From: a virus
Length of the DNA: 24,963 bases
Reading direction: 5' to 3' (one strand)
UHGV virus genome: UHGV-0134179
Under the pieces are notes generated by a model. It was not told where the DNA came from. It made no database searches and saw nothing but the letters and a program-made list of their open reading frames with translations. Position 1 is the first letter of the stretch. Each line of letters begins with the position of its first letter. Of this stretch, positions 5,575-24,963 are shown in pieces. The position numbers and the translations under genes are program-made.

Positions 5575-5672
5575 TTTATCCCTCATTTCTCCTGGCGAAT
5601 GCTTTAACGGGCAGGCGCTGACCTATTTAAAATTTATGCCAGCGTCTAGCTGGCATTATCAAGAGACTGAAT

Positions 5673-6722: not shown

Positions 6723-6723
6723 T

Positions 6724-7101: not shown

Positions 7102-7105
7102 GCAT

Positions 7106-8007: not shown

Positions 8008-8009
8008 TC

Positions 8010-8195
8010 ATGTTTGTAAAACCGAAGGACGGGCTCAGCGTTCGCTGCCCTGTCAGGGGGGAGCCTTTGCCTAAAGATGGCGCGGAGGTACCTGATAATA
8101 CGTTCTGGCGTCGCCGCCTGAAGGATGGCGACGTCAGTCTGGTACCGGAAAAGGGCGTTAAAAACGCCGTAAAAAAAGAGGGCGTAATTAAATGA
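8010..8195 (+). CDS. small conserved protein upstream of tail sheath (DUF2635-like)
   Basis: 61 aa; GLSVRCPVRGEPLPKDGAEVPDNTFWRRRLKDGDVSLV matches my recollection of the small protein preceding sheath genes in Mu-like prophages; overlaps the sheath start by 4 nt. Confidence 0.5.
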   Translation: MFVKPKDGLSVRCPVRGEPLPKDGAEVPDNTFWRRRLKDGDVSLVPEKGVKNAVKKEGVIK

Positions 8196-9703: not shown

Positions 9704-9706
9704 AAC

Positions 9707-10078
9707 ATGGCTGGAGATACCACTAATCGCCTGGCAGGTACCGCTTATGTCACCGTAAACGGGGTGACAGTTATGGTGGAGGGCTCATTCAAGTATCAGA
9801 CCTCCACTGTTAACCGTACCACGCTGACAGGCATGGACGGTGTGCATGGCTACAAAGAAAAGCCGGTTGCCCCGTATATTTCTGCCCGTCTTCGCGACAG
9901 CGGCGGTACCAACGTATTGGGTTTTAACAAACAGACGAACGTCAACGTGATCGCCGAACTGGCGAACGGAAAGACTATTATCGGTCGCGCGCTATGGACG
10001 GTGAACGTTCAGGAAGTGGAAAGCGAAGATGCAGTGTTTGATGTTCGCTGGGAAGGCCGGGACGTAACGGAGAACTAA
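9707..10078 (+). CDS. tail tube protein (Mu gpM-like)
   Basis: 123 aa; immediately after the sheath gene. Confidence 0.7.
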   Translation: MAGDTTNRLAGTAYVTVNGVTVMVEGSFKYQTSTVNRTTLTGMDGVHGYKEKPVAPYISARLRDSGGTNVLGFNKQTNVNVIAELANGKTIIGRALWTVNVQEVESEDAVFDVRWEGRDVTEN

Positions 10079-10079
10079 G

Positions 10080-10358
10080 ATGGCAGAACTTGAACGCACC
10101 AAAGTCATTCCCCTCATCAAGCCTCTGGTCGATGAGGCGCAAAAAACACGCTATGAGCAACTGGAGCTGAAGGCGCCGACGCTCAGCCAGGCAGAGCAGT
10201 TCTACGAAAAGCAGGCATCGTCTACTTCACTGGCGGCGATGCGCCTGCTGATCTCGCTGGTCACGGATACGCGGGAAAGTGTGCTTCAGCCGATGGATTT
10301 TATCGACTTCCGAAAATGCGAGGAGTTTTTGCTCGGTTTTTTGACCTGGAAGCCCTGA
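10080..10358 (+). CDS. tail assembly chaperone (short form)
   Basis: 92 aa acidic protein between tube and tape-measure genes; overlapped at its 3' end by a -1 frame ORF running to the tape-measure start. Confidence 0.6.
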   Translation: MAELERTKVIPLIKPLVDEAQKTRYEQLELKAPTLSQAEQFYEKQASSTSLAAMRLLISLVTDTRESVLQPMDFIDFRKCEEFLLGFLTWKP

Positions 10359-10507
10359 CCGCCTGGCAGGAAACGGCGGCTGACGTCACATTTTATTTCC
10401 GCTGGACAGAAGACAGGGCATGGGGCATGACCTATGCCCGTCTGAAGTGGTGGGTATCGCAGGCCTCCCGTATCAATAAACTCAGGAATCCCGAACCCGA
10501 TGAGTAA
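10337..10507 (+). other. putative programmed -1 ribosomal frameshift site and extension giving a long-form chaperone (G/GT-like)
   Basis: Slippery heptamer T_TTT_TTG at 10337-10343 in the zero frame of the chaperone, 15 nt before its stop; the -1 frame stays open to 10507 and overlaps the tape-measure ATG. Confidence 0.45.
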
Positions 10508-12353: not shown

Positions 12354-12361
12354 CCCTATTA

Positions 12362-12384
12362 AACCGCCACCCTGGCGGTTTTTT
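12362..12384 (+). terminator. terminator-like hairpin between the tape-measure and N genes
   Basis: AACCGCCA-CCC-TGGCGGTT stem-loop followed by TTTT, then an AGGAGG RBS and ATG at 12400. Confidence 0.45.
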
Positions 12385-12399
12385 AATTCAGGAGGCCTG

Positions 12400-13800
12400 A
12401 TGGCAATTATCCAGGATGCAATAACTTCTCTGATGGGGGGCGGTGGTAGTGAGGACTGGTTGAGCCAGCTACGTCCCGGCTCGTTCCGGGGCGTGCCTTT
12501 TGCTGTGGTGAATGAGGAAGGCAGTCATGGCCGGCGGCAGGCGGTTCATGAATATCCATACCGTGATACCGCCTGGATTGAGGATATGGGGCGCGGGACA
12601 CGGCGATTTATTATCCGTGGCTTTATCGTCCAGAACAGTCTGGTATACGGCGGTGGCGACGTTATTTCTCAGCGCCAGTCATTGATCAATGCGTGTGAAG
12701 CTAAGGGGAGCGGTACGCTCATTCACCCCACGCTGGGGGAGATGACCGTTTCAATACCTGAGAACGGTTTAAGGCTTTCCGGCTCCGCCGACAACGGCCG
12801 TTCGTTTGAATTTACCCTGATGGTCATTGAGTCGGGGTTAAAGGTCTTTGCCGTTACCGACAGTGCCGCCGCGGGGGATACCGTTGGCACCAACTTTCTG
12901 AAGCTGGTTAGTACGACGGTTGCCAGTACCCTCGCGAGAATTAAAAGCGAGATCCGTGGTGTGTCGCAGGGGATTCAGACCATCAGGGGAACCGTGACGT
13001 TCTGGACCAATATGGTGGATAACACCATCAGTGAGGTAACAAACGTCAGTAACGTGCTGGATTCTACTTTCGGGAATAATCGTTACGGGCGTTACAGCAA
13101 GGGGACCGTAGGCGGGAGCTCTTCGGGTATTAACGGCAATCGTGATGCCGATGACTCAGAAGACCATCAGGCATTGTCTGAACAGGTTACCGCCCGGGCG
13201 GTGATGGATCGCCAGGCTGTGCTCGCTACAACGGCTGCACTGAATGAATCTGTATTGGTCGAGGAATTTGTTCAGGGCGTTGCCGATGTGATTAATCGCA
13301 TTCTGTCCAGCGCCGGTAGCGTGAGTGACAAAATTGCCGCATTTGAAAAACTGGCGGCTTCAACCAGTACCGGATACCAGCGTTCCGAAAGCAGCCAGCA
13401 ACTGGCTGGCACCATGAACACGCTGATCGTAGTGCTATGTACCGGAGCCATGACGGATGCTGCTGCAGATTACAACCCAACCAGTCGTAATGAGGCCGAA
13501 GAAATCACTCAACGCGTAGCCGGGCAACTGGATACCGCGTTACTACTGGCGGGCGACCGTGGCGATGATGATCTTTATACGGCATTGATGGGCGTGAGAA
13601 CCGCTTTTCTGAATACCATGGCTCAGACTTCAGCCGGGCTGAGTGAGTTGATGCAAATAAATACCGCGGTGCCGGTTCCTGCCCTGGTACTGGCCAACCG
13701 CCTGTATCAGGATGCCTCGCGGGCAAATGAACTGATACAGGAGGCCAGCGTACCGCATCCGGCATTTATGCCGACGACGATGAAGGTGTTGAGACAATGA
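12400..13800 (+). CDS. DNA circularization protein N-like tail protein (Mu gpN-like)
   Basis: 466 aa; N-terminal WLSQLRPGSFRGVPF matches the recalled conserved N-terminus of Mu N-family proteins. Confidence 0.75.
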   Translation: MAIIQDAITSLMGGGGSEDWLSQLRPGSFRGVPFAVVNEEGSHGRRQAVHEYPYRDTAWIEDMGRGTRRFIIRGFIVQNSLVYGGGDVISQRQSLINACEAKGSGTLIHPTLGEMTVSIPENGLRLSGSADNGRSFEFTLMVIESGLKVFAVTDSAAAGDTVGTNFLKLVSTTVASTLARIKSEIRGVSQGIQTIRGTVTFWTNMVDNTISEVTNVSNVLDSTFGNNRYGRYSKGTVGGSSSGINGNRDADDSEDHQALSEQVTARAVMDRQAVLATTAALNESVLVEEFVQGVADVINRILSSAGSVSDKIAAFEKLAASTSTGYQRSESSQQLAGTMNTLIVVLCTGAMTDAAADYNPTSRNEAEEITQRVAGQLDTALLLAGDRGDDDLYTALMGVRTAFLNTMAQTSAGLSELMQINTAVPVPALVLANRLYQDASRANELIQEASVPHPAFMPTTMKVLRQ

Positions 13801-14882
13801 GTACGGATAATGATCAGGATATTGTCTCCCTGACAGTGGGCGGAAAAATCATTGAAGGATGGGACTCTGTGCGGGTGACCCGTGGCATTGAGCGTTTTCC
13901 CTCCGATTTTGACCTGGGACTGATGGATTATTTTCCGGGAAGTGACCAGAAGCAGCTGGTAAAGGAAGGGATGTCTTGTCAGGTAAAGCTTGGTAACGAC
14001 CTGGTCGTGACGGGGTATGTTGATGACTGGTCGCCTGCTATTTCCCGTTCGCGCCATGAAGTCAGAGCCTCAGGCCGCAGTAAGTGCGCAGATCTCGTGG
14101 ATTGCTCTGCTGAATGGCCAAATAACGTCATCAATAACAGTAATGCGCTTGATATAGCCTCCCGCCTCGCATCCCATTACAACATTGGAGTAAGTACAGA
14201 CGTTGATGATCTGGTGAAAGTCCCGCAATTTTCCCTGAACTGGGGGGAATCGCCACAGGAAATACTTGATCGTGTCTCCCGCTGGTCGGCATTGCTTTAT
14301 TACGATCAGCCTGACGGTAACTTATTTCTGACCCGGGTGGGGACAAAGCGCGCGGCCAGCGGTATCGCAGAAGGGGTAAATATCGAACAGGCTTATTACC
14401 GCCGTTCGATGGCTGACCGCTTTTCTGATTACGTCGGCGTATCGATGAGCATTTCGCCGATTGCAGGATTCTCGCCTGATACGGCTTATGATTCGGTGAC
14501 GCTGGCGACGGCCCGCGATCCTGAGGCGGCCAGTATGCGTTACCGAAAACGGATCATTATTGTTGAAAGTACACTGATGGCTTCACAACAGGCTCAGCGA
14601 GCGATTGACTGGGAGATGAACCGCCGATACGGCCGTTCCCGTCAGTTAACGGTGACGATTGATTCCTGGCGCGATAAATCCGGGAAATTATGGGAGCCGA
14701 ATACGCTTATCCCGGTCAACATCCCGAGTCTGCAGCTGCCTGACACCGAAATGCTTATCGCAGAGGTGACTTATATCAGAAACAGTGACGGCACCCATGC
14801 GCGCCTTTATCTGATGCCCCCGGCGGCTTTCGCTGTCCAGCCTTATGCTTTTTACCAGCAAATACCCGGACTAAACCAATGA
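13797..14882 (+). CDS. tail/baseplate protein (Mu gpP / P2 gpD-like)
   Basis: 361 aa; 4-nt overlap with N; position before the spike gene. Confidence 0.7.
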   Translation: MSTDNDQDIVSLTVGGKIIEGWDSVRVTRGIERFPSDFDLGLMDYFPGSDQKQLVKEGMSCQVKLGNDLVVTGYVDDWSPAISRSRHEVRASGRSKCADLVDCSAEWPNNVINNSNALDIASRLASHYNIGVSTDVDDLVKVPQFSLNWGESPQEILDRVSRWSALLYYDQPDGNLFLTRVGTKRAASGIAEGVNIEQAYYRRSMADRFSDYVGVSMSISPIAGFSPDTAYDSVTLATARDPEAASMRYRKRIIIVESTLMASQQAQRAIDWEMNRRYGRSRQLTVTIDSWRDKSGKLWEPNTLIPVNIPSLQLPDTEMLIAEVTYIRNSDGTHARLYLMPPAAFAVQPYAFYQQIPGLNQ

Positions 14883-15460
14883 ATCAAAATTTAAAGAAAT
14901 CGGCCACACGCATCGCCGGCATGCTGGGCATTGGCCGTATTACCACGCAGAGAGATAGCGGGGTTGTGCAGGAAATCCAGTACCAGACTCCGCTGGAAGT
15001 GGCCAGCGCCCCGCGGCTCTCTGATTTTGGTTTTTCATCGGGGTTACCGGCGGGATCGGATGTGCTTATTGCCTTTCTCGGTGGGGACCGCTCCAGTCCC
15101 GTCGTCATTGCCTCTAACCATCAAAGCTTCCGGTATACCGGGCTTAAGCCAGGCGAAACCGTGGTCTATAACCAGCAGGGGATGAATATTCATCTGACCG
15201 AGGAGGGGATTTTCATTGATGCGAAAGGCAAAGATGTAGAGATCAATAATGCCAGAAACATCACCGCGACGGCAACGGAACAGGTAAAGCTGGTTACCCC
15301 CAAACTCCTGGTGACGGGTGACATCATCGATAACTGCGAGACGAACAATTCAACGCTCAAAGCGCTGCGGGATGCTCACAACAATCATGACCATGACGTT
15401 AAAGAAGTTCAGTCCGGCGATAGCAAGATCACAAGCGAAAAAACAGAGAGTCAGGTATGA
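14879..15460 (+). CDS. baseplate spike / assembly protein V-like
   Basis: 193 aa; VLIAFLGGDRSSPVVIAS resembles the gpV OB-fold motif; His-rich C-terminal HNNHDHD. Confidence 0.7.
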   Translation: MNQNLKKSATRIAGMLGIGRITTQRDSGVVQEIQYQTPLEVASAPRLSDFGFSSGLPAGSDVLIAFLGGDRSSPVVIASNHQSFRYTGLKPGETVVYNQQGMNIHLTEEGIFIDAKGKDVEINNARNITATATEQVKLVTPKLLVTGDIIDNCETNNSTLKALRDAHNNHDHDVKEVQSGDSKITSEKTESQV

Positions 15461-15906
15461 GTGATATTTCCTCATTCTGGGATGTGGATGCCATTCATGC
15501 TGACTGGCAAACCGGTAACGGCGTACTGACATCTGAGAATGATATGCACACGGCCATTATTATCAGTTTGTTTACTGACGGACTGGCGCGCGCTGATGAT
15601 GATTATGAAGGAACTGACCGCCGCGGCTGGTGGGGGGATCTGGACAACGACCGGAATATTGGCTCAAGGCTGTGGCTACTGCGGCGTGAAAAACTGACGC
15701 GCGAAGTGGCGATGAGAGCTGAAGATTACGCCGAAGAGGCTCTGGCCTGGATGAAGTCGGATGGTATTGCAGCAGCGATAGAGGCTCAGTCAGAGATTGT
15801 TTTCCCGAACAGGCTGAACCTCATCATCCGGTATTTGCCGCCGACGGGGGACTGGCAGGAGTTCAAATTCTTCTGGCTATGGGAGCAACTGAATAATGCC
15901 ATTTAA
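15457..15906 (+). CDS. baseplate protein (GPW / gp25-like, Mu gp46-like)
   Basis: 149 aa; size and position between spike and J-like genes. Confidence 0.65.
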   Translation: MSDISSFWDVDAIHADWQTGNGVLTSENDMHTAIIISLFTDGLARADDDYEGTDRRGWWGDLDNDRNIGSRLWLLRREKLTREVAMRAEDYAEEALAWMKSDGIAAAIEAQSEIVFPNRLNLIIRYLPPTGDWQEFKFFWLWEQLNNAI

Positions 15907-17044
15907 GCGGAAAACACTGAGCGAGCTCCGGCAGGAGAATCGCCAGTTTATGCAGGCAGAGCTTGAAAGTGTTGGCGCGTTGTTACGGTTTGGCAACCTT
16001 AAGGTGCTCGCTGATATGGATGCGGGCATGGCCCATCTGCACTACGCCTACCTGGATTATATTGCCCGTCAGAGCACGCCTTTCACCTCTACCGATGAGT
16101 GGCTTGCCGGATGGATGGCGCTAAAGCAGATTTACCGAAAAGCCGCAACGGCAGCACGCTCTCCGGCGGCGAAAGTTACCGGAACACCGGGAAAAACACT
16201 GTCAAAAGGGGCTGTGTTAAACCGTGATGATGGTTACCAGTACATAACCGATGACGCCATAACGATAAATACCACTGGCAGTGCGACGGTCGCCGTAACA
16301 GCGGTTTTGCCGGATATCACAGACGATGTGACAGGAGGAGGCGCTTCCGGAAATGCCGATGCTGGCACCATTCTTACACTGGATGCTAATGCCCCCGGCA
16401 TAGACAGCTCGGTCACGCTGATTGAGCCTGCCACCGGCGGCGCTAACATTGAAAGTGAAGAGGATTTCCGATTACGTGGTCTGCTGGCGTATCAGAATCC
16501 CCCGCAGGGAGGGAGTGACACTGATTATAAAAGCTGGGCTTTATCCGTGTCGGGGATCACCAGGGCATGGATACGGCGCCGGGGGATGGGGCCGGGTACC
16601 GTGGTGATTTACATCATGTGCGACGGCGATGATAAAACCAATCATGGATTCCCTGTAGGAACTGACGGTGTCTCTCAACTGGAAGAGTGGGGGGCTGTAA
16701 AAGCCACCGGGGATCAGGGGAGAGTTGCCGATTATATGTATCCGCTTGCGCCGGTTACCTCCCTTAACTATGTCTGCTCTCCCATCGAACGCGTTATCGA
16801 TTTTGAAATAAGCGGGATATCTGATGCCGACAGCGCAACGACTGCGGCCATTGCTGATGCGATTGACGGGGTATTGTTTGAATCTGCTAACCCGCTCGGC
16901 ACAGGGAAAATTTACCTTTCAGATCTCAACCGCGCAATAGGGGATGTTGCCGGTACTTCAGGTTATATCCTTGTGTCGCCTTCTGCGAATATTGAGCCGG
17001 GAGTTGGGGAGCTGGCTGTTCGTGGCGAGGTGAACTACACATGA
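15896..17044 (+). CDS. baseplate J-like protein (Mu gp47-like)
   Basis: 382 aa; position in the Mu-type order. Confidence 0.75.
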   Translation: MPFKRKTLSELRQENRQFMQAELESVGALLRFGNLKVLADMDAGMAHLHYAYLDYIARQSTPFTSTDEWLAGWMALKQIYRKAATAARSPAAKVTGTPGKTLSKGAVLNRDDGYQYITDDAITINTTGSATVAVTAVLPDITDDVTGGGASGNADAGTILTLDANAPGIDSSVTLIEPATGGANIESEEDFRLRGLLAYQNPPQGGSDTDYKSWALSVSGITRAWIRRRGMGPGTVVIYIMCDGDDKTNHGFPVGTDGVSQLEEWGAVKATGDQGRVADYMYPLAPVTSLNYVCSPIERVIDFEISGISDADSATTAAIADAIDGVLFESANPLGTGKIYLSDLNRAIGDVAGTSGYILVSPSANIEPGVGELAVRGEVNYT

Positions 17045-17715
17045 GCCTTTTCTCAACAGACGATTATCAGAAGGCACTGCAGGCGCTTATCCCCACCGGC
17101 CGAGCGTGGACACGGGATCCAAAAGCCGTTCAGGCCGCTGTACTGCGGGCCATTGCGGCCAGTTTCCAGCGTAGTGATAACGACGCACTTGCATTGCTGC
17201 GCGGTGCCTTTCCAAAAACTGCGACGATTATGCTCACCGAGTGGGAAAAAACACTCGGCTTGCCTGATGATTGCTCGATTGGCGAAGTGGATACGATTGC
17301 GAAGCGTCAGTCTGCCATTGTCTCGAAGCTCATCAGTACCGGTGGGCAGTCAAAGAGCTATTTCATCAGTATTGCCGCAGCAATGGGTTATACGATTTCG
17401 ATTAAGGAATACCGGCAGGCGCGTGCTGGCTTATCGGTATGTGGTGACGGGCTAAATGGGGATGACTGGCCATTTGTCTGGCTGGTAGAGGCGGAAGACA
17501 CAACGATAACTTATGCCCGTGCAGGTCTGAGTTATTGTGGTGATCCATTACGCTCCTGGGGTAATCGTCAGCTTGAGTGCCGGATAAATGCCCTTGCCCC
17601 CTCATACACCCTGGTCAAATTTGGCTATATATATTTCGGTTTTAACGATGAAGGGGTTTACGAAGTCACGCCTGAGTTTGCCAGAATATTTGATATCGCT
17701 TCCGGTTACGTTTAA
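17041..17715 (+). CDS. tail protein (Mu gp48 / YmfQ-like)
   Basis: 224 aa; 4-nt overlap with the J-like gene; immediately precedes the fibre gene. Confidence 0.6.
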   Translation: MSLFSTDDYQKALQALIPTGRAWTRDPKAVQAAVLRAIAASFQRSDNDALALLRGAFPKTATIMLTEWEKTLGLPDDCSIGEVDTIAKRQSAIVSKLISTGGQSKSYFISIAAAMGYTISIKEYRQARAGLSVCGDGLNGDDWPFVWLVEAEDTTITYARAGLSYCGDPLRSWGNRQLECRINALAPSYTLVKFGYIYFGFNDEGVYEVTPEFARIFDIASGYV

Positions 17716-17741
17716 TTCAGACATTTAAAAAGAAGGTTTAT

Positions 17742-18527
17742 ATGAGAAAAGTTGGCAGTACAACTGACACCGCTGATGTTAATGGTGAATACACTAATGG
17801 TAATGTCGCTAATGGTATTTCACCGACAATAATTAATGCTGAGATGATGAATACCTTTCAGCGTGAGCTGGTAAACGTTGTTGAAGGCGCGGGGCTTGAG
17901 CTTGATCCTGATGATGATTCACAGGTTCATAAAGCGATTGGTGGCGGTCGCCTGCTTAATATTGTCACATTTACGAAGTCAGGGACTTACACTCCAACTA
18001 AAGGGACGAAAAGAGTGCGGGTGAAAGTTTGGGGAGCGGGGGGAGGTGGCCAGAATGCTCCAGTTAATGTGGGCGCATCTGGTGGTTGTGCTGGTGGGTT
18101 TTCGGAAGGGTTATTTAATATTTCTGATAACGAAACTATATCTGTGACGATAGGTACTGGTGGCAGTGCTGTTGCTGCTGGTGTCGCGTCTAAAGGCGGG
18201 AACGGTGGTGATACAAGGTTCGGGAGTTTAATCTCAGCTACTGGAGGGAGTGGTGGCGGGTCTACAGTTCCTGCTGGAGGTATCGGAAGTGGCGGGAACA
18301 TTTTAAATATTACTGGCGGAATATCTCAAGGTGGTCTGTATTATGGTTCTGATGCTTTTATTGGCGGGGCTGGAGGATCTGCATTTTCATCAACGGGTGG
18401 CAATGGCCACTTCGGTAGTTCTGGCGATGATGGCGGTTTCCCCGGCTCAGGTGGTGCCGGGGGGAATGGTAACTATTCATCAGGAAAAGGAGCGAATGGT
18501 TTAGTTTACCTTGAAGAGTTTTCCTGA
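17742..18527 (+). CDS. tail fibre protein with glycine-rich C-terminal domain
   Basis: 261 aa; N-terminal ADVNGEYTNGNVANGISPTIINAEMMNTFQRELVNVVEG resembles conserved fibre N-termini; the C-terminal ~170 aa are dominated by GG/GGxGG repeats. Confidence 0.65.
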   Translation: MRKVGSTTDTADVNGEYTNGNVANGISPTIINAEMMNTFQRELVNVVEGAGLELDPDDDSQVHKAIGGGRLLNIVTFTKSGTYTPTKGTKRVRVKVWGAGGGGQNAPVNVGASGGCAGGFSEGLFNISDNETISVTIGTGGSAVAAGVASKGGNGGDTRFGSLISATGGSGGGSTVPAGGIGSGGNILNITGGISQGGLYYGSDAFIGGAGGSAFSSTGGNGHFGSSGDDGGFPGSGGAGGNGNYSSGKGANGLVYLEEFS

Positions 18528-19597
18528 TTATTTTTGCTTTGAGCGTCCGCCCTTATTTTTGCTCTAATTTTAATTAGTGGCTTGTCTATTAATATTACAC
18601 AAACGATCCCAAGTGCAATTGATATTGGGTAGCCTAATAAAAAGATAGATAAACCACGATTTTCACCACCAATAGCAAGCCATGCTAGAAATCCGCCAAA
18701 ATATTGACAAAGAAAAATTGGATAGGCCAGATCACCAAACCACTTGAGTATTTTCTCAAGATGTATGTTTGTCTTTATTTTTAATAATGCCAGGGTTGTA
18801 AATAATGCTATTGCATTATTGGTGTAGTAAAGTATTATGTTGTACTGACCTAATGCATTAATTGTATATAAATACCAATTGGTAATAAAAATCCCAATGC
18901 AGATAAATGTTATTAAAAAAGCCTTGTGTGGAGAAAGATACATAGCTTTGAACTTTCTATGGGCAAAATAACCCAGAGAACCCATGCTAAAAGGAAGTGT
19001 TGCAGCAAGGAATGGGAAATACGCCATATCAAAAGAATGGTGAACTACATATACGTAAGCATGATAAAGCAGTGAAAGCAGAATCGACGTAATGGCTGTA
19101 AATTTATTTCTGGCTATGAAAAGCCACAATAAAAAATAACATGTTATCTCAACACCCACTGACCATGATGATGTGACTATTCTGAATCTATTACCATCAA
19201 TAGCAAAGTGATAAATGGATGAAAAGGCACCGAATGGATTTGCTACAGCATTATCAGAAAGGAAAGCCCAGGGGAAGATTAAGAGGTTTCCTAATAAATC
19301 TCCAGGCAAGAAATTGCCTGTCCAGTTTGAATGGAATTCCTTTGCGGATGGAATTAATTTTATAATAAGAAAGCCCATGACGAGAAAAAATATATATGCC
19401 GGGAATAACCTCAGTATTCTATTTTTCCAAAACATAGAGAAGTTGAACTTGTATGTTTCATGCAAAATGTATGTTATTAAAAAGCCACTAATAACATAGA
19501 AGCAATTCACTGCAAAGTTGCCAAGTGCAGGTATGCGAGCCGTTAAGTGAAAAGCAATGACGCACGATGCCAAAAAAAACCTTATTAGGCCAAGCAT
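18506..19597 (-). CDS. acyltransferase family 3 membrane protein (O-antigen acetylase-like lysogenic-conversion candidate)
   Basis: 363 aa, AT-rich, highly hydrophobic with many predicted TM segments. N-terminus LGLIRFFLASCVIAFH aligns with the AT3 GLRG...H motif and is followed by FYVISGFLI. Opposite strand to the fibre genes. Confidence 0.8.
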   Translation of the reverse strand: MLGLIRFFLASCVIAFHLTARIPALGNFAVNCFYVISGFLITYILHETYKFNFSMFWKNRILRLFPAYIFFLVMGFLIIKLIPSAKEFHSNWTGNFLPGDLLGNLLIFPWAFLSDNAVANPFGAFSSIYHFAIDGNRFRIVTSSWSVGVEITCYFLLWLFIARNKFTAITSILLSLLYHAYVYVVHHSFDMAYFPFLAATLPFSMGSLGYFAHRKFKAMYLSPHKAFLITFICIGIFITNWYLYTINALGQYNIILYYTNNAIALFTTLALLKIKTNIHLEKILKWFGDLAYPIFLCQYFGGFLAWLAIGGENRGLSIFLLGYPISIALGIVCVILIDKPLIKIRAKIRADAQSKNNQENSSR

Positions 19598-19860
19598 TAT
19601 TTTATCTCCGCGCCAATATCGCGCATTTTATATATTACATTGTTAAGTTGCTCATCAGACAGAACAAGCTGAGCTGCAATGTAAAACAGTATGTGTTTTG
19701 ACATTACCCTGGGGCTCTCTCCGCCAGTGTATTTCCGCCATTGGCTATCGCTGGCTACACCTGCGAGCCCTGCCATTTGGTTTCCGGAGTAATTTAGTGC
19801 GGATTTCAGTCTGGCTAAATCTTCCTGCGTTGGAGGGGTGTATTTATTTATTAATATCAT
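19597..19860 (-). CDS. small XRE-like HTH protein co-transcribed with the acyltransferase
   Basis: Start taken at ATG 19860 (the track ORF starts at GTG 19884). HTH-like segment SGNQMAGLAGVASDSQWRKYTGG. Its TAA overlaps the acyltransferase ATG (TAATG at 19595-19599). Confidence 0.5.
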   Translation of the reverse strand: MILINKYTPPTQEDLARLKSALNYSGNQMAGLAGVASDSQWRKYTGGESPRVMSKHILFYIAAQLVLSDEQLNNVIYKMRDIGAEIK

Positions 19861-19961
19861 TCTCTTATTTAACCGTTTAAACACGTATGGCGATGTTAGC
19901 CCTGAAGGGGCGGGGCGTCAATCTTAATTGCTTCATTGAAAAGATGAAGACAGGAACAGGT

Positions 19962-21977
19962 ATGGACAAAAGATATAATACCGGCAATCCAAGACCCTCA
20001 AATAGCATGAAGGATCTGAATGATAATGCCCTGGCGTACGATGATTTCCTGAACAGCGAAAGCGATACTTTTATAGATCGTTTTGGTAACGCCCAGGATA
20101 CGATGATTGGGGCTACTAAAAAAATGGCAGCTGCTACCGACGCTGTTATTGATGAAGCCCGCCAAAACCTGATCCCTCTGAGCAAGCAATACATGACGCT
20201 TGCTGATGCACAGGCGGATATAGCGAATATCCCTGAAGGGAGCACAACGTATTACCGCAGCCCTGATGATAGTGCGCTTGCTATTGAGGTTATCAACAAT
20301 AGCGGTGCGCTGTCAGCGACGGGCAGAGTAATGCCATCTCAGGGGTATGTAGACAGGGTGATAAACACCTCAACAGCCAACGAAAATATTGTAATCACTC
20401 TTGACGCTGACGCCAGCCCCGTAGAGGTTCGAGATGATTTTGGCGGGGTGAATATTCCGGGGGTTCCTGCTCCAGTACAGGATATTTTGCAACAGGTGCA
20501 GAAGAGCGCCGCCCCGGCCATCCTTCGTCTGACTGACGCTGAGAATGCCGCATACACCTCTGTTGACGAATATGGAGACATTTATGCACCGGAGATGCCG
20601 TCCAGTATTCAACGTTTATTGCTGGCGATGAAAAAGGATGTTGATAAGCTTAGAAAGCAAGGGATGATTCTGGATGCCAGAGATTGCGGGCTCAACACGA
20701 AAACCGGTGAAGACTCACAGCGTGCAATTCAGCGCGGATATAACTGGTTGTCCGGGAATGGCGGCGGCCATCTTTACGTCCCGGCTGGCTATTTTAAAAT
20801 GGCGATCCCTGTTGTTCCTCGTTCCGGCGTCGCCTTACATGGTGCCGGCATCGGTGCGACTAATTTTCTTCCTTACGGTTATTTGTCTGCATTTGAGTAT
20901 GTAGGGGACGAAACATACATCGAAAACCTTCAGTTTACCGACTTCACCATTGATGGCGAAAATCAGCAACTTCATCCGACAAGAGGTTATATCCCTAACA
21001 TTAAGGGAATTCTCCTCCAGTATTACCGGAATACTGTTTTTGACCGCATCAAAATCCAGAATACCGGTGCAACAGGGTTAGGGACGGACATGCCGGATAA
21101 TGTGTCTATTATGCGCGTGGTCACTGAAAACTGCGGCCGTCTCGGCGTTGTCGGTGATTTAGGGGCTTCCGGTATTGGGCTGGGAACCGGCTTCCTTAAC
21201 AGTGAGCCTATCTTTGTTTATCAGACAGTGAATAAACACAATAAGAACTACGGTATATTTTACGAACCACAGCGCGGTGTGGGTGTTGCCCGTGACACCA
21301 TCGCAGTTGGAAATGTGTGTGAGTACAATCATGCCGGAATGGCCGATTGTGGAATAGATGGCCTGATCGCTATTGGCAATAACCTGCGTTTCAATGAATA
21401 TGGGTTTAAAGGCTCACCGGGTACAAACGGTGCGGGAAACCCCGGAAACCGTGGCATTCTGAAGGACAACCATATCAACGGTAATACTAAACATGGTATT
21501 TATCTTTATACGGATAAAGGATTGGCTATAGAGGGTGAATATAATTACTCCGGCAATCGTATAGCTGATAACGAACTCGACGGCATACATGTTGAATATG
21601 TTCATACGTCTGCGAAATTACTGAACAGTAAGTTTGCGGATAATGAAATTTATCGTAATGGTCGTCATGGCTTTAATTTTGTCAGCGGCAATCTGGTCAA
21701 TGTGGACATTATGAATAACCGACTCTGGAACAACGGACGTACAGAAGTGGGGGATGCCATAGCTGGTGCAGCAGATATGATGAAATGTGGAATTACTGGC
21801 AATAAAATCCGCGACACGCAGGATGCGGCTACCCAGCAGTATCCGGTTAATCTCTCTGGGGCACTGACCGACATGGATATTTCGTTCAACCATTGTGTCG
21901 GAAATGCCCGAAATACTTTAAATCTGACCGGTGCACAAACTCGTGTAACCACACTTAACAATCCCGGGATCGCATAA
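19962..21977 (+). CDS. tailspike protein with parallel beta-helix (polysaccharide depolymerase-like) domain
   Basis: Start chosen at ATG 19962 (AGGA RBS 6 nt upstream); in-frame alternatives at 19887 and 19944. Repeated beta-helix-type units rich in N/G/D (NHINGNTKHGIYLY, GNRIADNELDGIHVEY, ADNEIYRNGRHGFNF, MNNRLWNNGRTEVG). Confidence 0.75.
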   Translation: MDKRYNTGNPRPSNSMKDLNDNALAYDDFLNSESDTFIDRFGNAQDTMIGATKKMAAATDAVIDEARQNLIPLSKQYMTLADAQADIANIPEGSTTYYRSPDDSALAIEVINNSGALSATGRVMPSQGYVDRVINTSTANENIVITLDADASPVEVRDDFGGVNIPGVPAPVQDILQQVQKSAAPAILRLTDAENAAYTSVDEYGDIYAPEMPSSIQRLLLAMKKDVDKLRKQGMILDARDCGLNTKTGEDSQRAIQRGYNWLSGNGGGHLYVPAGYFKMAIPVVPRSGVALHGAGIGATNFLPYGYLSAFEYVGDETYIENLQFTDFTIDGENQQLHPTRGYIPNIKGILLQYYRNTVFDRIKIQNTGATGLGTDMPDNVSIMRVVTENCGRLGVVGDLGASGIGLGTGFLNSEPIFVYQTVNKHNKNYGIFYEPQRGVGVARDTIAVGNVCEYNHAGMADCGIDGLIAIGNNLRFNEYGFKGSPGTNGAGNPGNRGILKDNHINGNTKHGIYLYTDKGLAIEGEYNYSGNRIADNELDGIHVEYVHTSAKLLNSKFADNEIYRNGRHGFNFVSGNLVNVDIMNNRLWNNGRTEVGDAIAGAADMMKCGITGNKIRDTQDAATQQYPVNLSGALTDMDISFNHCVGNARNTLNLTGAQTRVTTLNNPGIA

Positions 21978-23395
21978 TGACGACTATCTTACAAAGTAAT
22001 ATGAAAATTAAAGGTAATGTGAAGTTACCTTCAGTTAACGCCCCTCTCCCGGATGGAGCTAATTTATTCGCAGACTTCTCCTCTGGCCGTTACGTCATTA
22101 AACATGCCAGTGGTAATGTAATACGATCGGCATCTCTGACTGACATTTTGTCATTTAGTCGTGCCAGTACGGCTACAAGAGTAGGCAAAAACGGACTGAT
22201 TGAGTATCTTGGCACTGATGAACCAGCGATTGATTATCACCCTGTGACGCATGAATGCCTGGGATTGCGCGTAGAGTTATCATCCATTAACCGTATTGCC
22301 TGGTCTCAGGATTTCACCAAAACAGATAGCTGGACGCCATCCGGTATAACGCTGACAGCGAATGATGCTGTCTCTCCTGACGGTAACACCACAGCAACCA
22401 AAATTATTGAAAAAGCTGGATCCTCTGCAGTGCCCAGAACGCTCCTGGCGCTGACAACCAGCGACGCTACAACTGCCCCGTATACCTTCAGCATCTTTGC
22501 TAAAGCAAATACGGCCGGGGTTATTCAACTGGCCGCTCAGGGAGCTGTGTCACCTGTTGCCTTTGCGAACTTCGATCTTCGGAGTGGTAAAATTGGCAAG
22601 GTGTCTTCAGGTTCATCAACCATTGGGATACTACAGGTGACGATGGAGGAATATATTAATGGTTGGTATCGCTGCGCCATTACCATAACACCTTCATCTG
22701 CGGCCTCTCCTCAGTTTACGTTTGCGCTGGTGAATAATGACAGCAGCTCTGACGCGATTCCTTCATATCTCCCCGATACACCAAAATCTGTATGGATTTG
22801 GGGGGCGCAGCCAGAGCGCAAGGACGGTGCGACATCTTATATTCCCACGGCCGGCGCAGAAGTCACCCGAAACAGCGACATGTGCACCACGCCATCCACA
22901 ACGCAGTTTATTTCTGCTGCCGCAGGTACCGTAATGACCAGCGTTATACATCCACATAGCCTGCAACTGCTCAGCGGTGCCTATGGATCATTATCCTGCG
23001 CTGTCGTACTGGATAACACAGTCGAGGGGCCAAACATCCGGTTTTCATATCGTCCTCCGTCAAAAGGTGCTGCTGAGGGGGCTGCTCTTGGCGTGGCGCC
23101 TGATACAACAGGGGTTGCACAGAATCTTGAGATTCCCAGCATGGCATCAGTAAGAGACAATGATCAGTCATGCATATTCGCCTTTGACGGTAGCGCGATG
23201 ACGACAAAACTGTTTGATGGTTACAACTGGTACTCTCGCTCTGTTAGCGCATTCCCGCCGGCGCTTTCACGGTTGTGTATCGGTCGCTCGTATATGGGTG
23301 CAACGAATTACTTTAACGGACACATCAGGAAAATCATCTACTGGCCCACTGCGTTAGGCAATGCTGAAATGGAGGAGATTCTCTCTTATCAGTGA
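21977..23395 (+). CDS. tail fibre / receptor-binding protein with C-terminal LamG (ConA-like) domain
   Basis: 472 aa; ATG overlaps the tailspike stop (TAATG). C-terminus YFNGHIRKIIYWPTALGNAEMEEI matches the LamG_3-type motif F.G.IDEVRIYNRALSAEEI. Confidence 0.6.
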   Translation: MTTILQSNMKIKGNVKLPSVNAPLPDGANLFADFSSGRYVIKHASGNVIRSASLTDILSFSRASTATRVGKNGLIEYLGTDEPAIDYHPVTHECLGLRVELSSINRIAWSQDFTKTDSWTPSGITLTANDAVSPDGNTTATKIIEKAGSSAVPRTLLALTTSDATTAPYTFSIFAKANTAGVIQLAAQGAVSPVAFANFDLRSGKIGKVSSGSSTIGILQVTMEEYINGWYRCAITITPSSAASPQFTFALVNNDSSSDAIPSYLPDTPKSVWIWGAQPERKDGATSYIPTAGAEVTRNSDMCTTPSTTQFISAAAGTVMTSVIHPHSLQLLSGAYGSLSCAVVLDNTVEGPNIRFSYRPPSKGAAEGAALGVAPDTTGVAQNLEIPSMASVRDNDQSCIFAFDGSAMTTKLFDGYNWYSRSVSAFPPALSRLCIGRSYMGATNYFNGHIRKIIYWPTALGNAEMEEILSYQ

Positions 23396-23413
23396 TAAGT
23401 GGGTTTAGTAAAG

Positions 23414-23432
23414 AGGGCGCAATTAGCGCCCT
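23414..23432. terminator. hairpin between convergent genes (possible bidirectional terminator)
   Basis: AGGGCGC-AATTA-GCGCCCT stem-loop between the + strand stop at 23395 and the - strand stop at 23445; weak flanking T/A runs. Confidence 0.35.
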
Positions 23433-23444
23433 TCACGTTGATTT

Positions 23445-23786
23445 CTACTTCAATTCGAATTTATCAGAGAGGTAAGAGAAAATCTTTTTGCCTTTTTCAG
23501 TGAATTTTCCATCTTTAGTTAATAAATCATATCTTTTTAAAGTGGTTATTGGTGCACCAATTAAGTAGCCAGATTCAACCAATCGCTCAATGTCGTGTGG
23601 TATGTAGCCCCAATCGGTAAAGTTATAATCTTTATTACCATTTTTCATGTAATATTCAAAGTAGTCTTGTATCGTATCTAATACGCCATCATCAGGCTTT
23701 AAATCTTCGTTAAGCTCTTTAATGAAAACATCAAAGCTGTAACCTGTCTTAGGTTTGATGGCACATATATAAACTTTTTTATTCAT
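23445..23786 (-). CDS. hypothetical small protein (113 aa), cargo
   Basis: AT-rich ORF with AGGAAA RBS; Tyr/Asp/Lys-rich; no family recognised; downstream partner of the 246-aa gene. Confidence 0.55.
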   Translation of the reverse strand: MNKKVYICAIKPKTGYSFDVFIKELNEDLKPDDGVLDTIQDYFEYYMKNGNKDYNFTDWGYIPHDIERLVESGYLIGAPITTLKRYDLLTKDGKFTEKGKKIFSYLSDKFELK

Positions 23787-23917
23787 GTTATTTCCTGTTA
23801 TATTTATATAGCGATTGGTGGGGGCTAGAAATTTTCGTGCATCTTAAATAGTCGAGTTAGTATAAAGGGTTCTGGGCGGTTGATACTGTAGTGCCCAGGC
23901 AACTGGTGTACTATGAA

Positions 23918-24658
23918 CTATTTATTAGCAATATTGTCGTAAAAAAATTTTTGATTTTGTATTCTCAAAAGTGCTTCACTTAAGTCGAATTTTTTAAGTC
24001 TTTGATTATCCATGCCAGCATTTAAAATTAATGCTAATGTATAAGTTGAATTGATTTTCTCATCACTCAGCGGAGATATTCTATCTGGGAGATCTGATAA
24101 AATGGCAATATTTAAAAAATGTTTATATTCCTCTCTGAGTCTATTTAATATTGTATTTATAATCACCATAACTTCCTGTCCATATTGGATGGCTTGTTTT
24201 TGATCTGGTATTAATCCTTTATGAATTACATCGTTTCTAAAACTTACGCTTTTTTTACTAAGTAGTAATGGTTTTTCTTTTAATTCGGTAAAGTAAAGGA
24301 ATATAAAAGCACCTAATTGCCTTTCAGATTGGCTGGATATTTCCTTCCATGTATTAATGAAGGACTCTAACTCTATATCTTTGCTGAGGCATATTGTTTT
24401 GATAAAGAACTCATAAAATCTTTCTAGTGCAGATGTGAACGATGAGACAGCTTCTCTATAATATCCATCAATTATTGCATGAGCTCCTATTTCAAAGAGG
24501 ATCTCAAATTTTTGGTTCATCAAGTCGAGAATATTAGCATGTCCGTTGGGGCATGTGAATTCGTAGCTCCAATCATTTTTAATTTCAAGTTTTGAGGGTA
24601 AACATTCTGTCTCAGAATCCTGCGATGAGCATTCAGAACAATATACATGGAATTTCAT
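23918..24658 (-). CDS. hypothetical protein with N-terminal zinc-ribbon and RNxxxH (HEPN-like) motif (246 aa), cargo
   Basis: AGAGGA RBS; Cys7/Cys10 (CSEC), Cys19 and Cys36-Pro-Asn-Gly-His40; FRNDVIHKG at residues 140-148 (DNA 24221-24238) fits the HEPN Rx4-6H signature. Motif-level evidence only. Confidence 0.6.
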   Translation of the reverse strand: MKFHVYCSECSSQDSETECLPSKLEIKNDWSYEFTCPNGHANILDLMNQKFEILFEIGAHAIIDGYYREAVSSFTSALERFYEFFIKTICLSKDIELESFINTWKEISSQSERQLGAFIFLYFTELKEKPLLLSKKSVSFRNDVIHKGLIPDQKQAIQYGQEVMVIINTILNRLREEYKHFLNIAILSDLPDRISPLSDEKINSTYTLALILNAGMDNQRLKKFDLSEALLRIQNQKFFYDNIANK

Positions 24659-24840
24659 TGGAATCCTCTTTGAGATCTACAGTGTTGGGCTGATTCTACA
24701 AGCTTATCTAAAAGGCAGTGGTCAATAAGCAATCGATCTTTTATGTACTATAGCGCAGAAAGAGTGTTTTTCATACGGGAAATTTGGCTTTGTTGAATAA
24801 ATCAGCTTCAGGACGAGTGACTCTGTAGCTGACCGGGTTT

Positions 24841-24963
24841 TCAGGCAATACGCACGCTTTCTGGCATACCAGCCTTCGTTATTTTATTCAGCGCTCGTAC
24901 CAGGGCCATAGCCTCCGCAACCTGACCATCGTAGTCACGCAGCGTCAGTGAACCCCCGAACAG
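24841..24963 (-). CDS. hypothetical protein, C-terminal 40 codons only (5' end beyond the window)
   Basis: Minus-strand open frame from the window edge to TGA (plus coords 24841-24843), translating ...LFGGSLTLRDYDGQVAEAMALVRALNKITKAGMPESVRIA; GC-rich like the phage backbone. Confidence 0.3.
   Translation of the reverse strand: MFGGSLTLRDYDGQVAEAMALVRALNKITKAGMPESVRIA

What the first reader, a model, noticed from the sequence alone, without database searches (positions are those of the whole stretch)
19962..23395. Two consecutive receptor-binding proteins: beta-helix depolymerase-type tailspike and a LamG-domain fibre protein
The 672-aa protein has an N-terminal adaptor-like region followed by long beta-helix repeats typical of polysaccharide-degrading tailspikes. 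The overlapping downstream 472-aa protein ends in a ConA/LamG-type jelly-roll motif. Together with the Gly-rich fibre at 17742-18527 this gives the element three putative adhesin genes, a branched receptor-binding apparatus unusual for a Mu-type tail, and probably reflects module exchange.
Basis: partly seen in the sequence, partly recalled or inferred. Interest (0 to 1): 0.4.

Follow-up and report, generated by a model that had tools for sequence, protein, structure and literature searches.

The report
Swappable tailspike plus lectin-like partner genes
The last two late genes of this Klebsiella prophage remnant encode a sugar-cutting-type tailspike and a lectin-like partner that travel between phages as one unit, which is an ordinary though clear case of host-range module swapping.

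Summary

Module exchange is strongly supported. Window 3582-20342 is 98-99% identical in DNA to E. coli prophages. Identity stops inside the spike gene at about residue 130. E. coli relatives carry TolB-like, CotH, SGNH or other bodies there. The same beta-helix body and partner occur behind at least three other N-terminal anchors, in siphoviruses, and inside an invertible segment.

"Unusual for a Mu-type tail" is not supported. Serratia phage BZS1 and dozens of E. coli prophages have the same layout. In BZS1 both the large receptor-binding protein and the gene downstream of it were found in virions.

Depolymerase activity and the partner's role are inferred. This prophage copy lacks terminase, gpW and most of the portal gene. 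It is a new member of a known kind, of low to moderate interest.

The parts
15896..17715 (+). Mu-type baseplate wedge genes, gp47/J-like (15896-17044) and gp48/YmfQ-like (17041-17715). This is the tail lineage on which the fibre and spike are presumed to mount.
   Evidence: PF04865 at E 5.8e-53 and PF10076 at E 5.5e-31. They are 65% and 83% identical to Serratia phage BZS1 p21 and p22.
17742..18527 (+). Short Gly-rich tail fibre of 261 aa, in the position of Mu S / P2 H. It has a roughly 66-aa N-terminal attachment region and a Gly-rich C-terminal domain.
   Evidence: PF21722 at E 1.6e-9, and tail-fibre PHROGs on residues 1-70. It matches the Pam3 myophage fibre 7yfw/7ypx at E 4e-4. The N-terminal 66 aa are 76% identical to BZS1 p23 and 53% to the phiNP tail collar fibre.
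18506..19597 (-). Acyltransferase_3 (OafA/Oac-like) membrane protein of 363 aa. It is a moron on the opposite strand and converges on the fibre gene with a 22-nt overlap. It probably acetylates a surface polysaccharide in lysogens.
   Evidence: PF01757 at E 1.4e-15; phrog_3333 O-acetyltransferase. A gene of the same family sits in the same position in BZS1 (p24) and in the E. coli relatives (PMC7556043).
19597..19884 (-). Small putative HTH regulator (95-aa ORF; annotated as 87 aa in E. coli), divergent from the spike gene.
   Evidence: phrog_20491 at E 8e-30. It is 67% identical to BZS1 p25, which is annotated as XRE family. RefSeq calls it a 'transcriptional regulator' in E. coli W21.
19962..20360 (+). 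Spike residues 1-133, the anchor and shoulder module. Residues 1 to about 60 are inherited with this tail lineage. Residues about 61-133 form a small beta-sandwich that is widely shared among receptor-binding proteins.
   Evidence: 85-94% identical to E. coli prophage proteins with unrelated bodies. 32% identical to the N-terminus of BZS1 p27. PHROG hits are confined to residues 4-230. Phages with other anchors share similarity only from residue 58-79 onward. Segment identities vary independently.
20342..20353 (.). Recombination breakpoint. DNA identity to E. coli prophages of 97-98% ends here, at about spike residue 127-131.
   Evidence: blastn of the window against L001, L004 and L005. There is no megablast hit for 20354-23440 in 5,426 E. 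coli genomes.
20361..20711 (+). Spike residues 134-250, the neck. It contains two copies of a roughly 35-aa motif (ITLDADASPVEVRDDFGGVNIPGVPAPVQDILQQV and LRLTDAENAAYTSVDEYGDIYAPEMPSSIQRLLLAM), followed by the helix that caps the beta-helix.
   Evidence: The monomer model has low confidence here, with pLDDT 38-57. The repeat is read directly from the sequence. This segment tracks partner divergence best, with Spearman rho 0.87 over 13 pairs.
20712..21977 (+). Spike residues 251-671, the right-handed parallel beta-helix body. It runs to the C-terminus with no separate C-terminal domain.
21977..23395 (+). Partner protein of 472 aa. It has a disordered N-terminal tail (residues about 1-20), a GTA head-spike-fibre jelly-roll domain (HMM match at residues 99-299, nt 22271-22873) and a C-terminal LamG/ConA-like domain (residues about 340-472, nt 22994-23392). 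It is the last gene of the late operon.

Best explanation
The two genes form one portable, probably translationally coupled, receptor-binding cassette at the distal end of the late operon. The prophage has a lambda-type head and a Mu-type contractile tail.

Gene 1 is a three-part tailspike. Residues 1-133 attach it to the particle and are inherited with the baseplate genes. Residues 134-250 form a repeat-containing neck. Residues 251-671 form a right-handed beta-helix that binds a Klebsiella surface polysaccharide (capsule or O-antigen) and most likely cleaves it. The fold is closest to the AlgE-type epimerase/lyase and K1-lyase class.

Gene 2 is a lectin-like protein with two jelly-roll domains. 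It is made together with the spike, is carried on the virion, and binds carbohydrate. By analogy with the RcGTA head spike fibre, it would be held by its short N-terminal tail, most plausibly on the spike's neck or body rather than on the baseplate.

The cassette, from about spike residue 130 to the end of gene 2, was imported from the Klebsiella phage pool onto a backbone that is otherwise 98-99% identical to E. coli prophages. This retargeted the particle to Klebsiella.

Shown here: the folds, the domain boundaries, the breakpoint, the mosaicism, and the co-inheritance of body and partner across at least five anchor or tail contexts.

Inferred: trimerisation, enzymatic activity, the substrate, virion association of gene 2, and its docking site.
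For: Folds.

Backbone and breakpoint: window 3582-20000 is 98.9% identical to E. coli Ec1117 and 11000-20342 is 98.2% identical to W21 and ES2. Nothing in 5,426 E. coli genomes matches 20354-23440. The spike is 100% identical to a Klebsiella quasipneumoniae protein and lies in K. quasipneumoniae chromosomal contigs.

The anchor swaps bodies: TolB-like, CotH, SGNH and sialate-esterase bodies all sit behind the same 133 aa.

Body and partner travel together. The partner homologue lies immediately downstream in Kmi2C, RAH2 and Ec1-ASingh. It is also there in L006 (PF08400 anchor), L008 (PF18668 anchor), L025 (Serratia), L023 (invertible segment) and E. coli W21. The TAATG overlap is conserved in L006 and L008. 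E. coli spikes with non-helix bodies have unrelated second genes.

Partner divergence tracks the spike neck and body (rho 0.74-0.87), not the anchors (rho 0.2-0.5).

Function of relatives: the RcGTA head spike fibre is anchored by residues 2-10, and the tagged protein binds capsulated cells at about 100% against about 4% for a capsule-less mutant (PMC10218006).

Virion association by position: in BZS1, which has the same tail lineage and gene order, mass spectrometry of virions found both p27 and p28 (PMC7556043).

Klebsiella depolymerases usually carry C-terminal CBM or lectin domains (PMC13385381). This spike has none, and the partner supplies two lectin-like domains.
Against: No enzymatic or binding data exist for this protein or any close relative that I found.

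Phage Kmi2C, with a 44%-identical spike and a 46%-identical partner, produced no haloes, and its authors found no depolymerase.

Catalytic residues could not be assigned, and lyase, hydrolase and binding-only roles remain open. The top structural match, AlgE4, is an epimerase.

BZS1 p28 is only a positional analogue of the partner, not a homologue.

No fused spike-partner protein was found among the 146 retrievable proteins of the 150 best-scoring cluster representatives, so there is no Rosetta-stone support for physical association.

The mirror-tree correlation rests on 13 non-independent pairs.

No + strand sigma-70-like site was found just upstream of the spike gene, which is separated from the late operon by two opposite-strand genes.

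This prophage copy lacks terminase, gpW and about 470 aa of the portal protein. In this genome the proteins may therefore never be assembled into infectious particles.
Confidence: 0.62

Rival explanations
1. The 472-aa protein is not a virion adhesin. It is a non-structural assembly factor or chaperone needed to fold or trimerise this beta-helix, which lacks a C-terminal domain. It would play the role that Tfa, gp38 or gp57A play for fibres.
For: It always lies immediately downstream of the spike. Its start overlaps the spike's stop. It co-varies with the spike body, not with the anchor. The spike has neither a C-terminal trimerisation domain nor an intramolecular chaperone domain.
Against: It has no Caudo_TAP or other chaperone family hit. 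At 472 aa with two lectin folds it is unlike known fibre chaperones. Its homologous or structurally similar domains are surface-exposed virion parts: RcGTA head spike fibre 6TB9, Pa193 baseplate gp46, and the C-terminal part of proteins annotated as coliphage tail fibres. PHROG 5939 is annotated 'tail protein'. The positional analogue in BZS1 is virion-associated.
Confidence: 0.15
2. The two proteins are independent receptor-binding proteins that each dock separately on the baseplate. Together with the Gly-rich fibre they form a true three-adhesin branched apparatus.
For: There are three genes with receptor-binding-type folds after gp48. Branched multi-spike systems are known in Klebsiella phages. 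L008 carries several spike genes in a row.
Against: The partner's N-terminus does not co-vary with the baseplate-linked anchor. The partner stays with the beta-helix body on tails of quite different types: siphoviruses, gpJ-type tails and Mu-type tails. A baseplate-specific dock would not be expected to behave that way. No branching domain such as PF18668 or a T4 gp10-like domain was detected in the window proteins. In BZS1 the short fibre p23 was not among the 13 virion proteins detected.
Confidence: 0.15
3. The beta-helix protein binds but does not cleave, or it modifies its substrate (for example as an epimerase), or it targets O-antigen rather than capsule. On this reading 'depolymerase' is the wrong label.
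Confidence: 0.3
4. In this genome the genes are functionless relics. The prophage is a truncated remnant and nothing is assembled.
For: TerL, gpW and the first roughly 470 aa of the portal protein are missing and replaced by unrelated low-GC DNA. An IS903-like element lies just to the right.
Against: All ORFs from the S49 protease to the partner are intact and 98-99% identical to those of intact relatives. The same spike sequence occurs on 20 or more contigs. A complete tail module could still yield tailocin-like particles, or be rescued by recombination with a co-resident phage.
Confidence: 0.3

Closest known systems
Serratia phage vB_SspM_BZS1 p23-p28 (Bujak et al. 2020, PMC7556043)
   Same: It has the same tail lineage: gp47 is 65% identical, gp48 83%, the N-terminus of the short fibre 76%, the regulator 67%, and the N-terminus of the large receptor-binding protein 32%. 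The gene order is the same: gp48, short fibre, acyltransferase and HTH regulator on the opposite strand, a large enzymatic receptor-binding protein, then a second gene. Both p27 and p28 were detected in virions by mass spectrometry.
   Different: The body of BZS1 p27 is an acetyl-esterase, not a beta-helix. p28 is 301 aa and is not homologous to the 472-aa partner. The acyltransferases show no BLAST similarity at E <= 0.01.
Klebsiella phages vB_KmiS-Kmi2C (UYE91976 and UYE91975) and vB_Kpn_RAH2 (ORF46 and ORF47), and Escherichia phage Ec1-ASingh
   Same: Each has an adjacent homologous pair. The spike is 43-46% identical from residue 65-137 onward and the partner is 44-46% identical over its full length. 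The pair sits at the end of the tail module.
   Different: Kmi2C and RAH2 have siphovirus-type tail modules and different N-terminal anchors. Kmi2C showed no haloes. The pair was not recognised as a unit in the Kmi2C paper.
RcGTA head spike fibre Rcc01080 (PDB 6TB9; PMC7296036, PMC10218006)
   Same: It shares the jelly-roll 'GTA_spike_fiber' domain (phmmer E 3e-22 over partner residues 54-330; NF048003). It has a short N-terminal anchoring peptide and binds capsule.
   Different: It sits on capsid vertices, not on a tail. It is 325 aa and matches only partner residues 54-330, so the partner's C-terminal LamG-like region has no counterpart in the alignment. It is not paired with a beta-helix enzyme.
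Pseudomonas phage Pa193 gp46 and E217 gp45 baseplate wedge proteins (PDB 9B45, 8ENV)
   Different: There the domain is inserted into a core baseplate wedge protein. Here it is a separate terminal gene that is co-inherited with a spike.
Klebsiella capsule depolymerase tailspikes (K1 lyase 7W1C, K64-1 S2-4 9K4A, KP32gp38, KP34p57; DepoCatalog PMC13385381) and the AlgE4 A-module (2PYG)
   Different: Sequence identity is only 8-20%. This spike ends with the helix. Every DepoCatalog class is described with some C-terminal domain after the helix, often CBM- or lectin-like. Here lectin-like domains are encoded by a separate downstream gene. Activity and K-type are unknown.
Branched receptor-binding systems (KP32 gp37/gp38; CBA120 TSP1-4; G7C gp63.1/gp66)
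   Same: The concept is the same: a second receptor-binding protein hangs on the first by a short N-terminal peptide, and the genes are consecutive.
   Different: No T4 gp10-like or PF18668 branching domain was detected in the window spike. The second protein here is a lectin-like protein, not a second enzyme.

Membership tests
Beta-helix (pectin-lyase-like) phage tailspike / depolymerase | Right-handed parallel beta-helix central domain | tested here: met
Beta-helix (pectin-lyase-like) phage tailspike / depolymerase | A separate N-terminal particle-binding module that is exchangeable between bodies | tested here: met
   Residues 1-133 are 85-94% identical to proteins with TolB-like, CotH or other bodies. 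The body is found behind PF08400 and PF18668 anchors. Segment identities are mosaic.
Beta-helix (pectin-lyase-like) phage tailspike / depolymerase | Homotrimeric assembly | not testable with these tools
   Only monomer prediction was available. The neck at residues 134-230 has low confidence as a monomer.
Beta-helix (pectin-lyase-like) phage tailspike / depolymerase | Polysaccharide cleavage (identified catalytic residues, haloes) | not testable with these tools
   Invariant charged residues are listed, but no structure-based catalytic alignment was possible. The related phage Kmi2C gave no haloes.
Beta-helix (pectin-lyase-like) phage tailspike / depolymerase | Gene located in the tail module and protein present in the virion | tested here: inconclusive
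   The gene lies at the end of the tail module in the window and in Kmi2C, RAH2, L006, L008 and L025. Virion presence is shown only for the positional and N-terminal homologue BZS1 p27.
GTA head-spike-fibre domain proteins (NCBIfam NF048003) | HMM score above the curated cut-off | tested here: met
   121.5 bits against a cut-off of 36, at residues 99-299. Rcc01080 (6TB9) scores E 3e-22.
GTA head-spike-fibre domain proteins (NCBIfam NF048003) | Short N-terminal peptide that anchors the protein to a virion partner | tested here: inconclusive
   Residues 1-14 have pLDDT below 50. Residues 1-55 are the best conserved part among close relatives, at 93%. The docking partner is unknown.
GTA head-spike-fibre domain proteins (NCBIfam NF048003) | Binds capsular polysaccharide | not testable with these tools
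   Shown only for Rcc01080 (PMC10218006).
LamG / ConA-like lectin domain (Pfam PF13385 Laminin_G_3) | Pfam HMM hit above the gathering score in the window protein | tested here: not met
   No Pfam family at E <= 1 for the window protein.
LamG / ConA-like lectin domain (Pfam PF13385 Laminin_G_3) | ConA-like jelly-roll fold, and the family hit in homologues at the equivalent position | tested here: met
Mu-type contractile tail / baseplate | Sheath, tube, DNA-circulation protein, gpP/gp44, gp45, gp46, gp47 and gp48 in Mu order | tested here: met
   Pfam PF04984, PF10618, PF07157, PF21683, PF06890, PF07409, PF04865 and PF10076. The head genes are lambda-type: S49 protease, gpD and gpE.
Mu-type host-range system (S/U fibres with Gin-invertible G segment) | Alternative fibre genes flanked by inverted repeats, with an adjacent invertase | tested here: not met
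   The window has no invertase gene and no significant inverted repeats around the cassette. A distant relative of the cassette does sit in such a segment in K. pneumoniae.
Branched receptor-binding systems with a T4 gp10-like / TSP N-terminal branching domain | PF18668-type or gp10-like domain in the first receptor-binding protein | tested here: not met
   No such Pfam hit in the window spike. PF18668 is present in a relative, P0025.
Tail fibre assembly chaperones (Caudo_TAP and similar) | Family HMM hit in the downstream gene | tested here: not met
   No Pfam or NCBIfam chaperone family matches the 472-aa protein.

The most novel reading that the evidence does not exclude
The beta-helix spike and its lectin-like partner are an obligate two-component receptor-binding unit, a 'split' depolymerase. 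The carbohydrate-binding duet that other Klebsiella depolymerases carry at their C-terminus would here be supplied in trans and docked on the spike's neck. The pair would be a previously unrecognised portable cassette that phages of many tail types use to retarget themselves, across genera and even by DNA inversion.
Probability: 0.3. Interest if true: 0.5.

Novelty: new member of a known kind. Interest (0 to 1): 0.3.

Why it matters
This is a clean natural example of host retargeting by exchange of receptor-binding modules. The late-gene backbone is 98-99% identical between E. coli prophages and this copy, which otherwise occurs in Klebsiella quasipneumoniae. It differs only from a breakpoint about 130 codons into the spike gene. 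That defines a usable splice point for engineering phages or tailocins with this tail.

The strict co-inheritance of the beta-helix body with a lectin-like partner suggests two practical consequences:
- Recombinant depolymerase screens that express the spike alone may miss a required or specificity-modifying subunit. In one published screen, 34 of 50 candidate prophage depolymerases gave no detectable recombinant expression and only 14 were active (PMC13123978).
- Tools that predict host range should treat the two genes as one unit.

Otherwise this is an ordinary prophage tail-end module.

Tried and rejected
- I searched the PDB by sequence with the full spike and with a 34-sequence profile. 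Nothing matched residues 1-230 at E < 1 apart from a spurious coiled-coil hit. The anchor and neck therefore have no solved relative by sequence.
- I used the last large protein search on residues 1-135. It returned mostly partial proteins cut at contig ends, named SGNH/GDSL hydrolase or sialate O-acetylesterase. That confirms the anchor is mostly paired with esterase bodies, but it gives no domain census.
- I looked for a Rosetta-stone fusion. A search with the partner against 1.84 billion cluster representatives found 27,570 relatives. Many are giant multi-copy proteins. Nine fused candidates had no Pfam hits, and a profile of the spike matched none of the 146 retrievable top representatives.
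- I scanned for a promoter in front of the spike gene and found no + strand site near 19885-19961. This is uninformative for activator-dependent late promoters.
- I looked for an invertible segment or repeats in the window and found only short matches at chance level.
- I tried to decide between lyase and hydrolase from the HMMER alignment to AlgE4. The aligned rungs do not clearly conserve the AlgE4 catalytic motif, so I left this open.
- A PADLOC scan of the flanking opposite-strand genes gave only one weak HEPN-like hit at E 0.0025.
- I considered the upstream ATG at 19887 (696-aa ORF) as the true start and rejected it. The gene calls on record and the RefSeq homologues start at 19962, and an AGGA lies 8-11 nt upstream of it.


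Full report
WHAT IS IN THE WINDOW

The window is a metagenome contig (ENA ERZ1744285, NODE_418). It is 99.97% identical over window 9962-24963 to a chromosomal contig of Klebsiella quasipneumoniae. It carries the late region of a prophage with a lambda-type head and a Mu-type contractile tail.
- Head genes: an S49 protease, a scaffold-like protein, a gpD decoration protein, a gpE capsid protein and an FII-like connector.
- Tail genes: sheath, tube, chaperone, tape measure, DNA-circulation protein, gpP/gp44, gp45, gp46, gp47/J and gp48/YmfQ.

After gp48 the genes run in this order:
- a 261-aa Gly-rich short fibre at 17742-18527;
- two genes on the opposite strand, an Acyl_transf_3 membrane protein (18506-19597) and a small HTH regulator (19597-19884);
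- back on the + strand, the two genes of the finding at 19962-21977 and 21977-23395.

A GC-rich hairpin at 23411-23435 follows. Two opposite-strand genes of unknown function and an IS903-like fragment close the window.

CHECK OF THE OBSERVATION

The second protein is 472 aa, and its model has mean pLDDT 83.5.
- By sequence it matches the RcGTA head spike fibre Rcc01080 (6TB9, E 3e-22) and the Pa193 and E217 baseplate wedge proteins.
- It passes the NCBIfam GTA_spike_fiber model with 121.5 bits against a cut-off of 36, at residues 99-299.
- Pfam Laminin_G_3 is not detected in the window protein itself. It is detected above threshold at the equivalent C-terminal position (348-457) of a 50%-identical homologue and in more distant ones.
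- Foldseek against viral models matches the whole two-domain architecture (TM 0.66-0.75). The matches include proteins annotated as tail fibres in coliphages EdH4, NBEco002 and 'rolling'.

MODULE EXCHANGE

Window 3582-20000 is 98.9% identical in DNA to a prophage of E. coli Ec1117, and 11000-20342 is 98.2% identical to prophages of E. coli W21 and ES2. Identity ends abruptly at nt 20342-20353, about 130 codons into the spike gene. The remaining 3.1 kb has no megablast match in 5,426 complete E. coli genomes.

In the E. coli relatives the same 133-residue N-terminus (85-94% identical) is fused to unrelated bodies. These are annotated as TolB-like, CotH kinase, SGNH/GDSL hydrolase and sialate O-acetylesterase, or are a distant beta-helix. 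Each body is followed by its own second gene.

Conversely, the window's beta-helix body (58-59% identical, from residue 58-75 onward) is fused elsewhere to other anchors:
- a lambda Stf-type anchor (PF08400);
- a TSP/gp66-type anchor (PF18668);
- siphovirus-type anchors in the isolated phages Kmi2C and RAH2, and another N-terminus in Ec1-ASingh.

Identities computed per segment across 33 homologues show that residues 1-60, 61-133, 134-250, 251-480 and 481-671 assort independently. One homologue scores 98/99/59/45/43 and another 25/18/66/98/94.

THE TWO GENES ARE ONE CASSETTE

Every context I examined that has this beta-helix family has a homologue of the 472-aa protein immediately downstream. 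These contexts are Kmi2C, RAH2, Ec1-ASingh, L006, L008, a Serratia prophage (L025), a K. pneumoniae prophage (L023) and E. coli W21. The TAATG stop/start overlap is conserved in L006 and L008. E. coli spikes with the same anchor but non-helix bodies have unrelated second genes.

A crude mirror-tree analysis on 13 spike and partner pairs shows that partner divergence tracks the spike neck (residues 134-250, rho 0.87) and body (0.52-0.78) more than the anchors (0.47-0.50). The sample is small and the pairs are not independent.

The partner's first roughly 14 residues are disordered in the model. Residues 1-55 are the most conserved segment among close relatives. In RcGTA the homologous fibre is held by residues 2-10, and the rest binds capsule (PMC10218006).

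Klebsiella depolymerases normally carry C-terminal CBM or lectin domains (PMC13385381). This spike has none, and the partner supplies two lectin-like domains. A search for fused spike-partner proteins found none. Physical association therefore remains an inference.

IS IT UNUSUAL FOR A MU-TYPE TAIL?

It is not unusual for this lineage. Serratia phage vB_SspM_BZS1 has homologous gp47 (65%), gp48 (83%), short-fibre N-terminus (76%), regulator (67%) and large-receptor-binding-protein N-terminus (32%). Its gene order is the same, including an acyltransferase on the opposite strand. Its authors detected both the large protein (p27, an acetyl-esterase) and the downstream gene product (p28) in virions by mass spectrometry. 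They also discussed the acetylase/deacetylase pairing (PMC7556043).

Sixty-three of 5,426 complete E. coli genomes match the head and tail backbone (window 1-17000), 22 of them at 95% identity or more. Roughly 65 E. coli records match the fibre, acyltransferase and anchor region at 95% or more. Klebsiella prophage receptor-binding proteins with pectin-lyase-like or SGNH domains and modular N-termini have been surveyed at scale (PMC13123978).

The arrangement does differ from phage Mu itself, which has S/U fibres and Gin inversion. No invertase or flanking inverted repeats occur in the window.

MECHANISM AND CAVEATS

The most likely reading is that the spike mounts on the baseplate through its N-terminal module and binds, and probably cleaves, a Klebsiella surface polysaccharide. 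The partner would add lectin-type binding. Import of the cassette retargeted an otherwise E. coli-type particle.

Activity is untested. Kmi2C, with a 44%-identical spike and a 46%-identical partner, produced no haloes. The best structural match is an epimerase. In a recent screen only 14 of 50 candidate prophage depolymerases were active. No sigma-70-like site precedes the spike gene, which is cut off from the late operon by the two opposite-strand genes.

This copy of the prophage is also truncated. Only the last roughly 72 codons of the portal gene remain, and TerL and gpW are absent. They are replaced by unrelated low-GC DNA. Relatives that encode the identical S49 protease are intact.

VERDICT

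It overreaches on rarity and on a branched three-adhesin apparatus.

This is a new member of known kinds: a beta-helix prophage tailspike and a protein with a GTA-spike-fibre/LamG lectin architecture. It sits in a layout already described for phage BZS1. The one feature I did not find described in the papers I searched is the strict, portable pairing of this beta-helix family with the lectin-like partner.

Noticed in passing
window 1-3709: The prophage is truncated on its left side. Only the last roughly 72 codons of the portal gene remain (3485-3709). The large terminase, gpW and the rest of the portal gene are absent. Intact relatives in E. coli and other genomes have TerL, gpW and portal directly upstream of the identical S49 protease. 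This copy cannot package DNA on its own.
   Followed up: yes
window 1689-3392 (- strand): There is a low-GC island (34-43% GC against about 53% for the prophage). It holds two ORFs of 376 aa and 181 aa with no Pfam or PADLOC hits, and the 181-aa ORF has a signal-peptide-like N-terminus. The island replaces the missing packaging genes. It was found on only one other assembly (SRR27905135), where tail-fibre genes of another phage lie further upstream.
   Followed up: partly
window 3582-20342: The head and tail backbone is 98-99% identical in DNA to E. coli prophages integrated near yecD/aspS, although this element occurs in the Klebsiella quasipneumoniae chromosome. This is a cross-genus backbone that differs only in the receptor-binding cassette and the right end.
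   Followed up: yes
window 18506-19884 (- strand): An OafA/Oac-type acyltransferase and a small HTH regulator are inserted on the opposite strand between the fibre gene and the spike gene. The acyltransferase overlaps the fibre gene's 3' end by 22 nt. The same insertion is conserved in E. coli relatives and in Serratia phage BZS1. It is probably a lysogenic-conversion module that acetylates the polysaccharide targeted by the esterase-type spikes of relatives. Its substrate in Klebsiella is unknown.
   Followed up: partly
L023 4362-11381 (K. pneumoniae GCA_053960475.1; also L024): A 43%-identical spike and a 47%-identical partner lie convergent to a 920-aa alternative receptor-binding protein (PF26209). 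They sit inside a 6.3-kb segment bracketed by 48-64-nt inverted repeats. The repeats cover the first five codons and the upstream region of both receptor-binding genes. A Resolvase/HTH_7 invertase gene lies just outside the segment. It looks like a Gin/Pin-type invertible host-range switch that alternates whole receptor-binding gene sets.
   Followed up: partly
window 23445-24658 (- strand) and 24786-24963: Two low-GC opposite-strand genes of 113 aa and 246 aa sit at the right end. The 246-aa protein matches phrog_19381 (unknown function) and has a weak HEPN-like PADLOC hit at E 0.0025. It may be a defence or moron gene. An IS903/IS5-family element follows, with 88% identity to the IS903 copies in phages P7 and SJ46.
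   Followed up: partly
L001 (E. coli 38I23CPO002, Rac region near tonB/ompW): A second kind of E. coli locus holds only the distal piece: a truncated gp47, then gp48, Gly-rich fibre, acyltransferase, spike with a TolB-like body, and a second gene. It is fused to Rac-type recE/recT genes and has a Pin-like recombinase downstream. This right-end module therefore also survives as a prophage remnant.
   Followed up: no
window 20361-20711 (spike residues 134-250): The neck contains two tandem copies of a roughly 35-residue motif, of the form l.l.DA....v.v.D.fG.v..Pg.P..vQ.lL. The monomer model predicts this region poorly. The motif is conserved across the family consensus and may be a trimeric or partner-binding element.
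   Followed up: no
protein family of window 21977-23395: The GTA-spike-fibre and LamG unit is very widespread. It has 27,570 cluster representatives at E <= 1e-3 among 1.84 billion. These include giant proteins of up to 6,808 aa with up to 13 matched stretches.
   Followed up: partly
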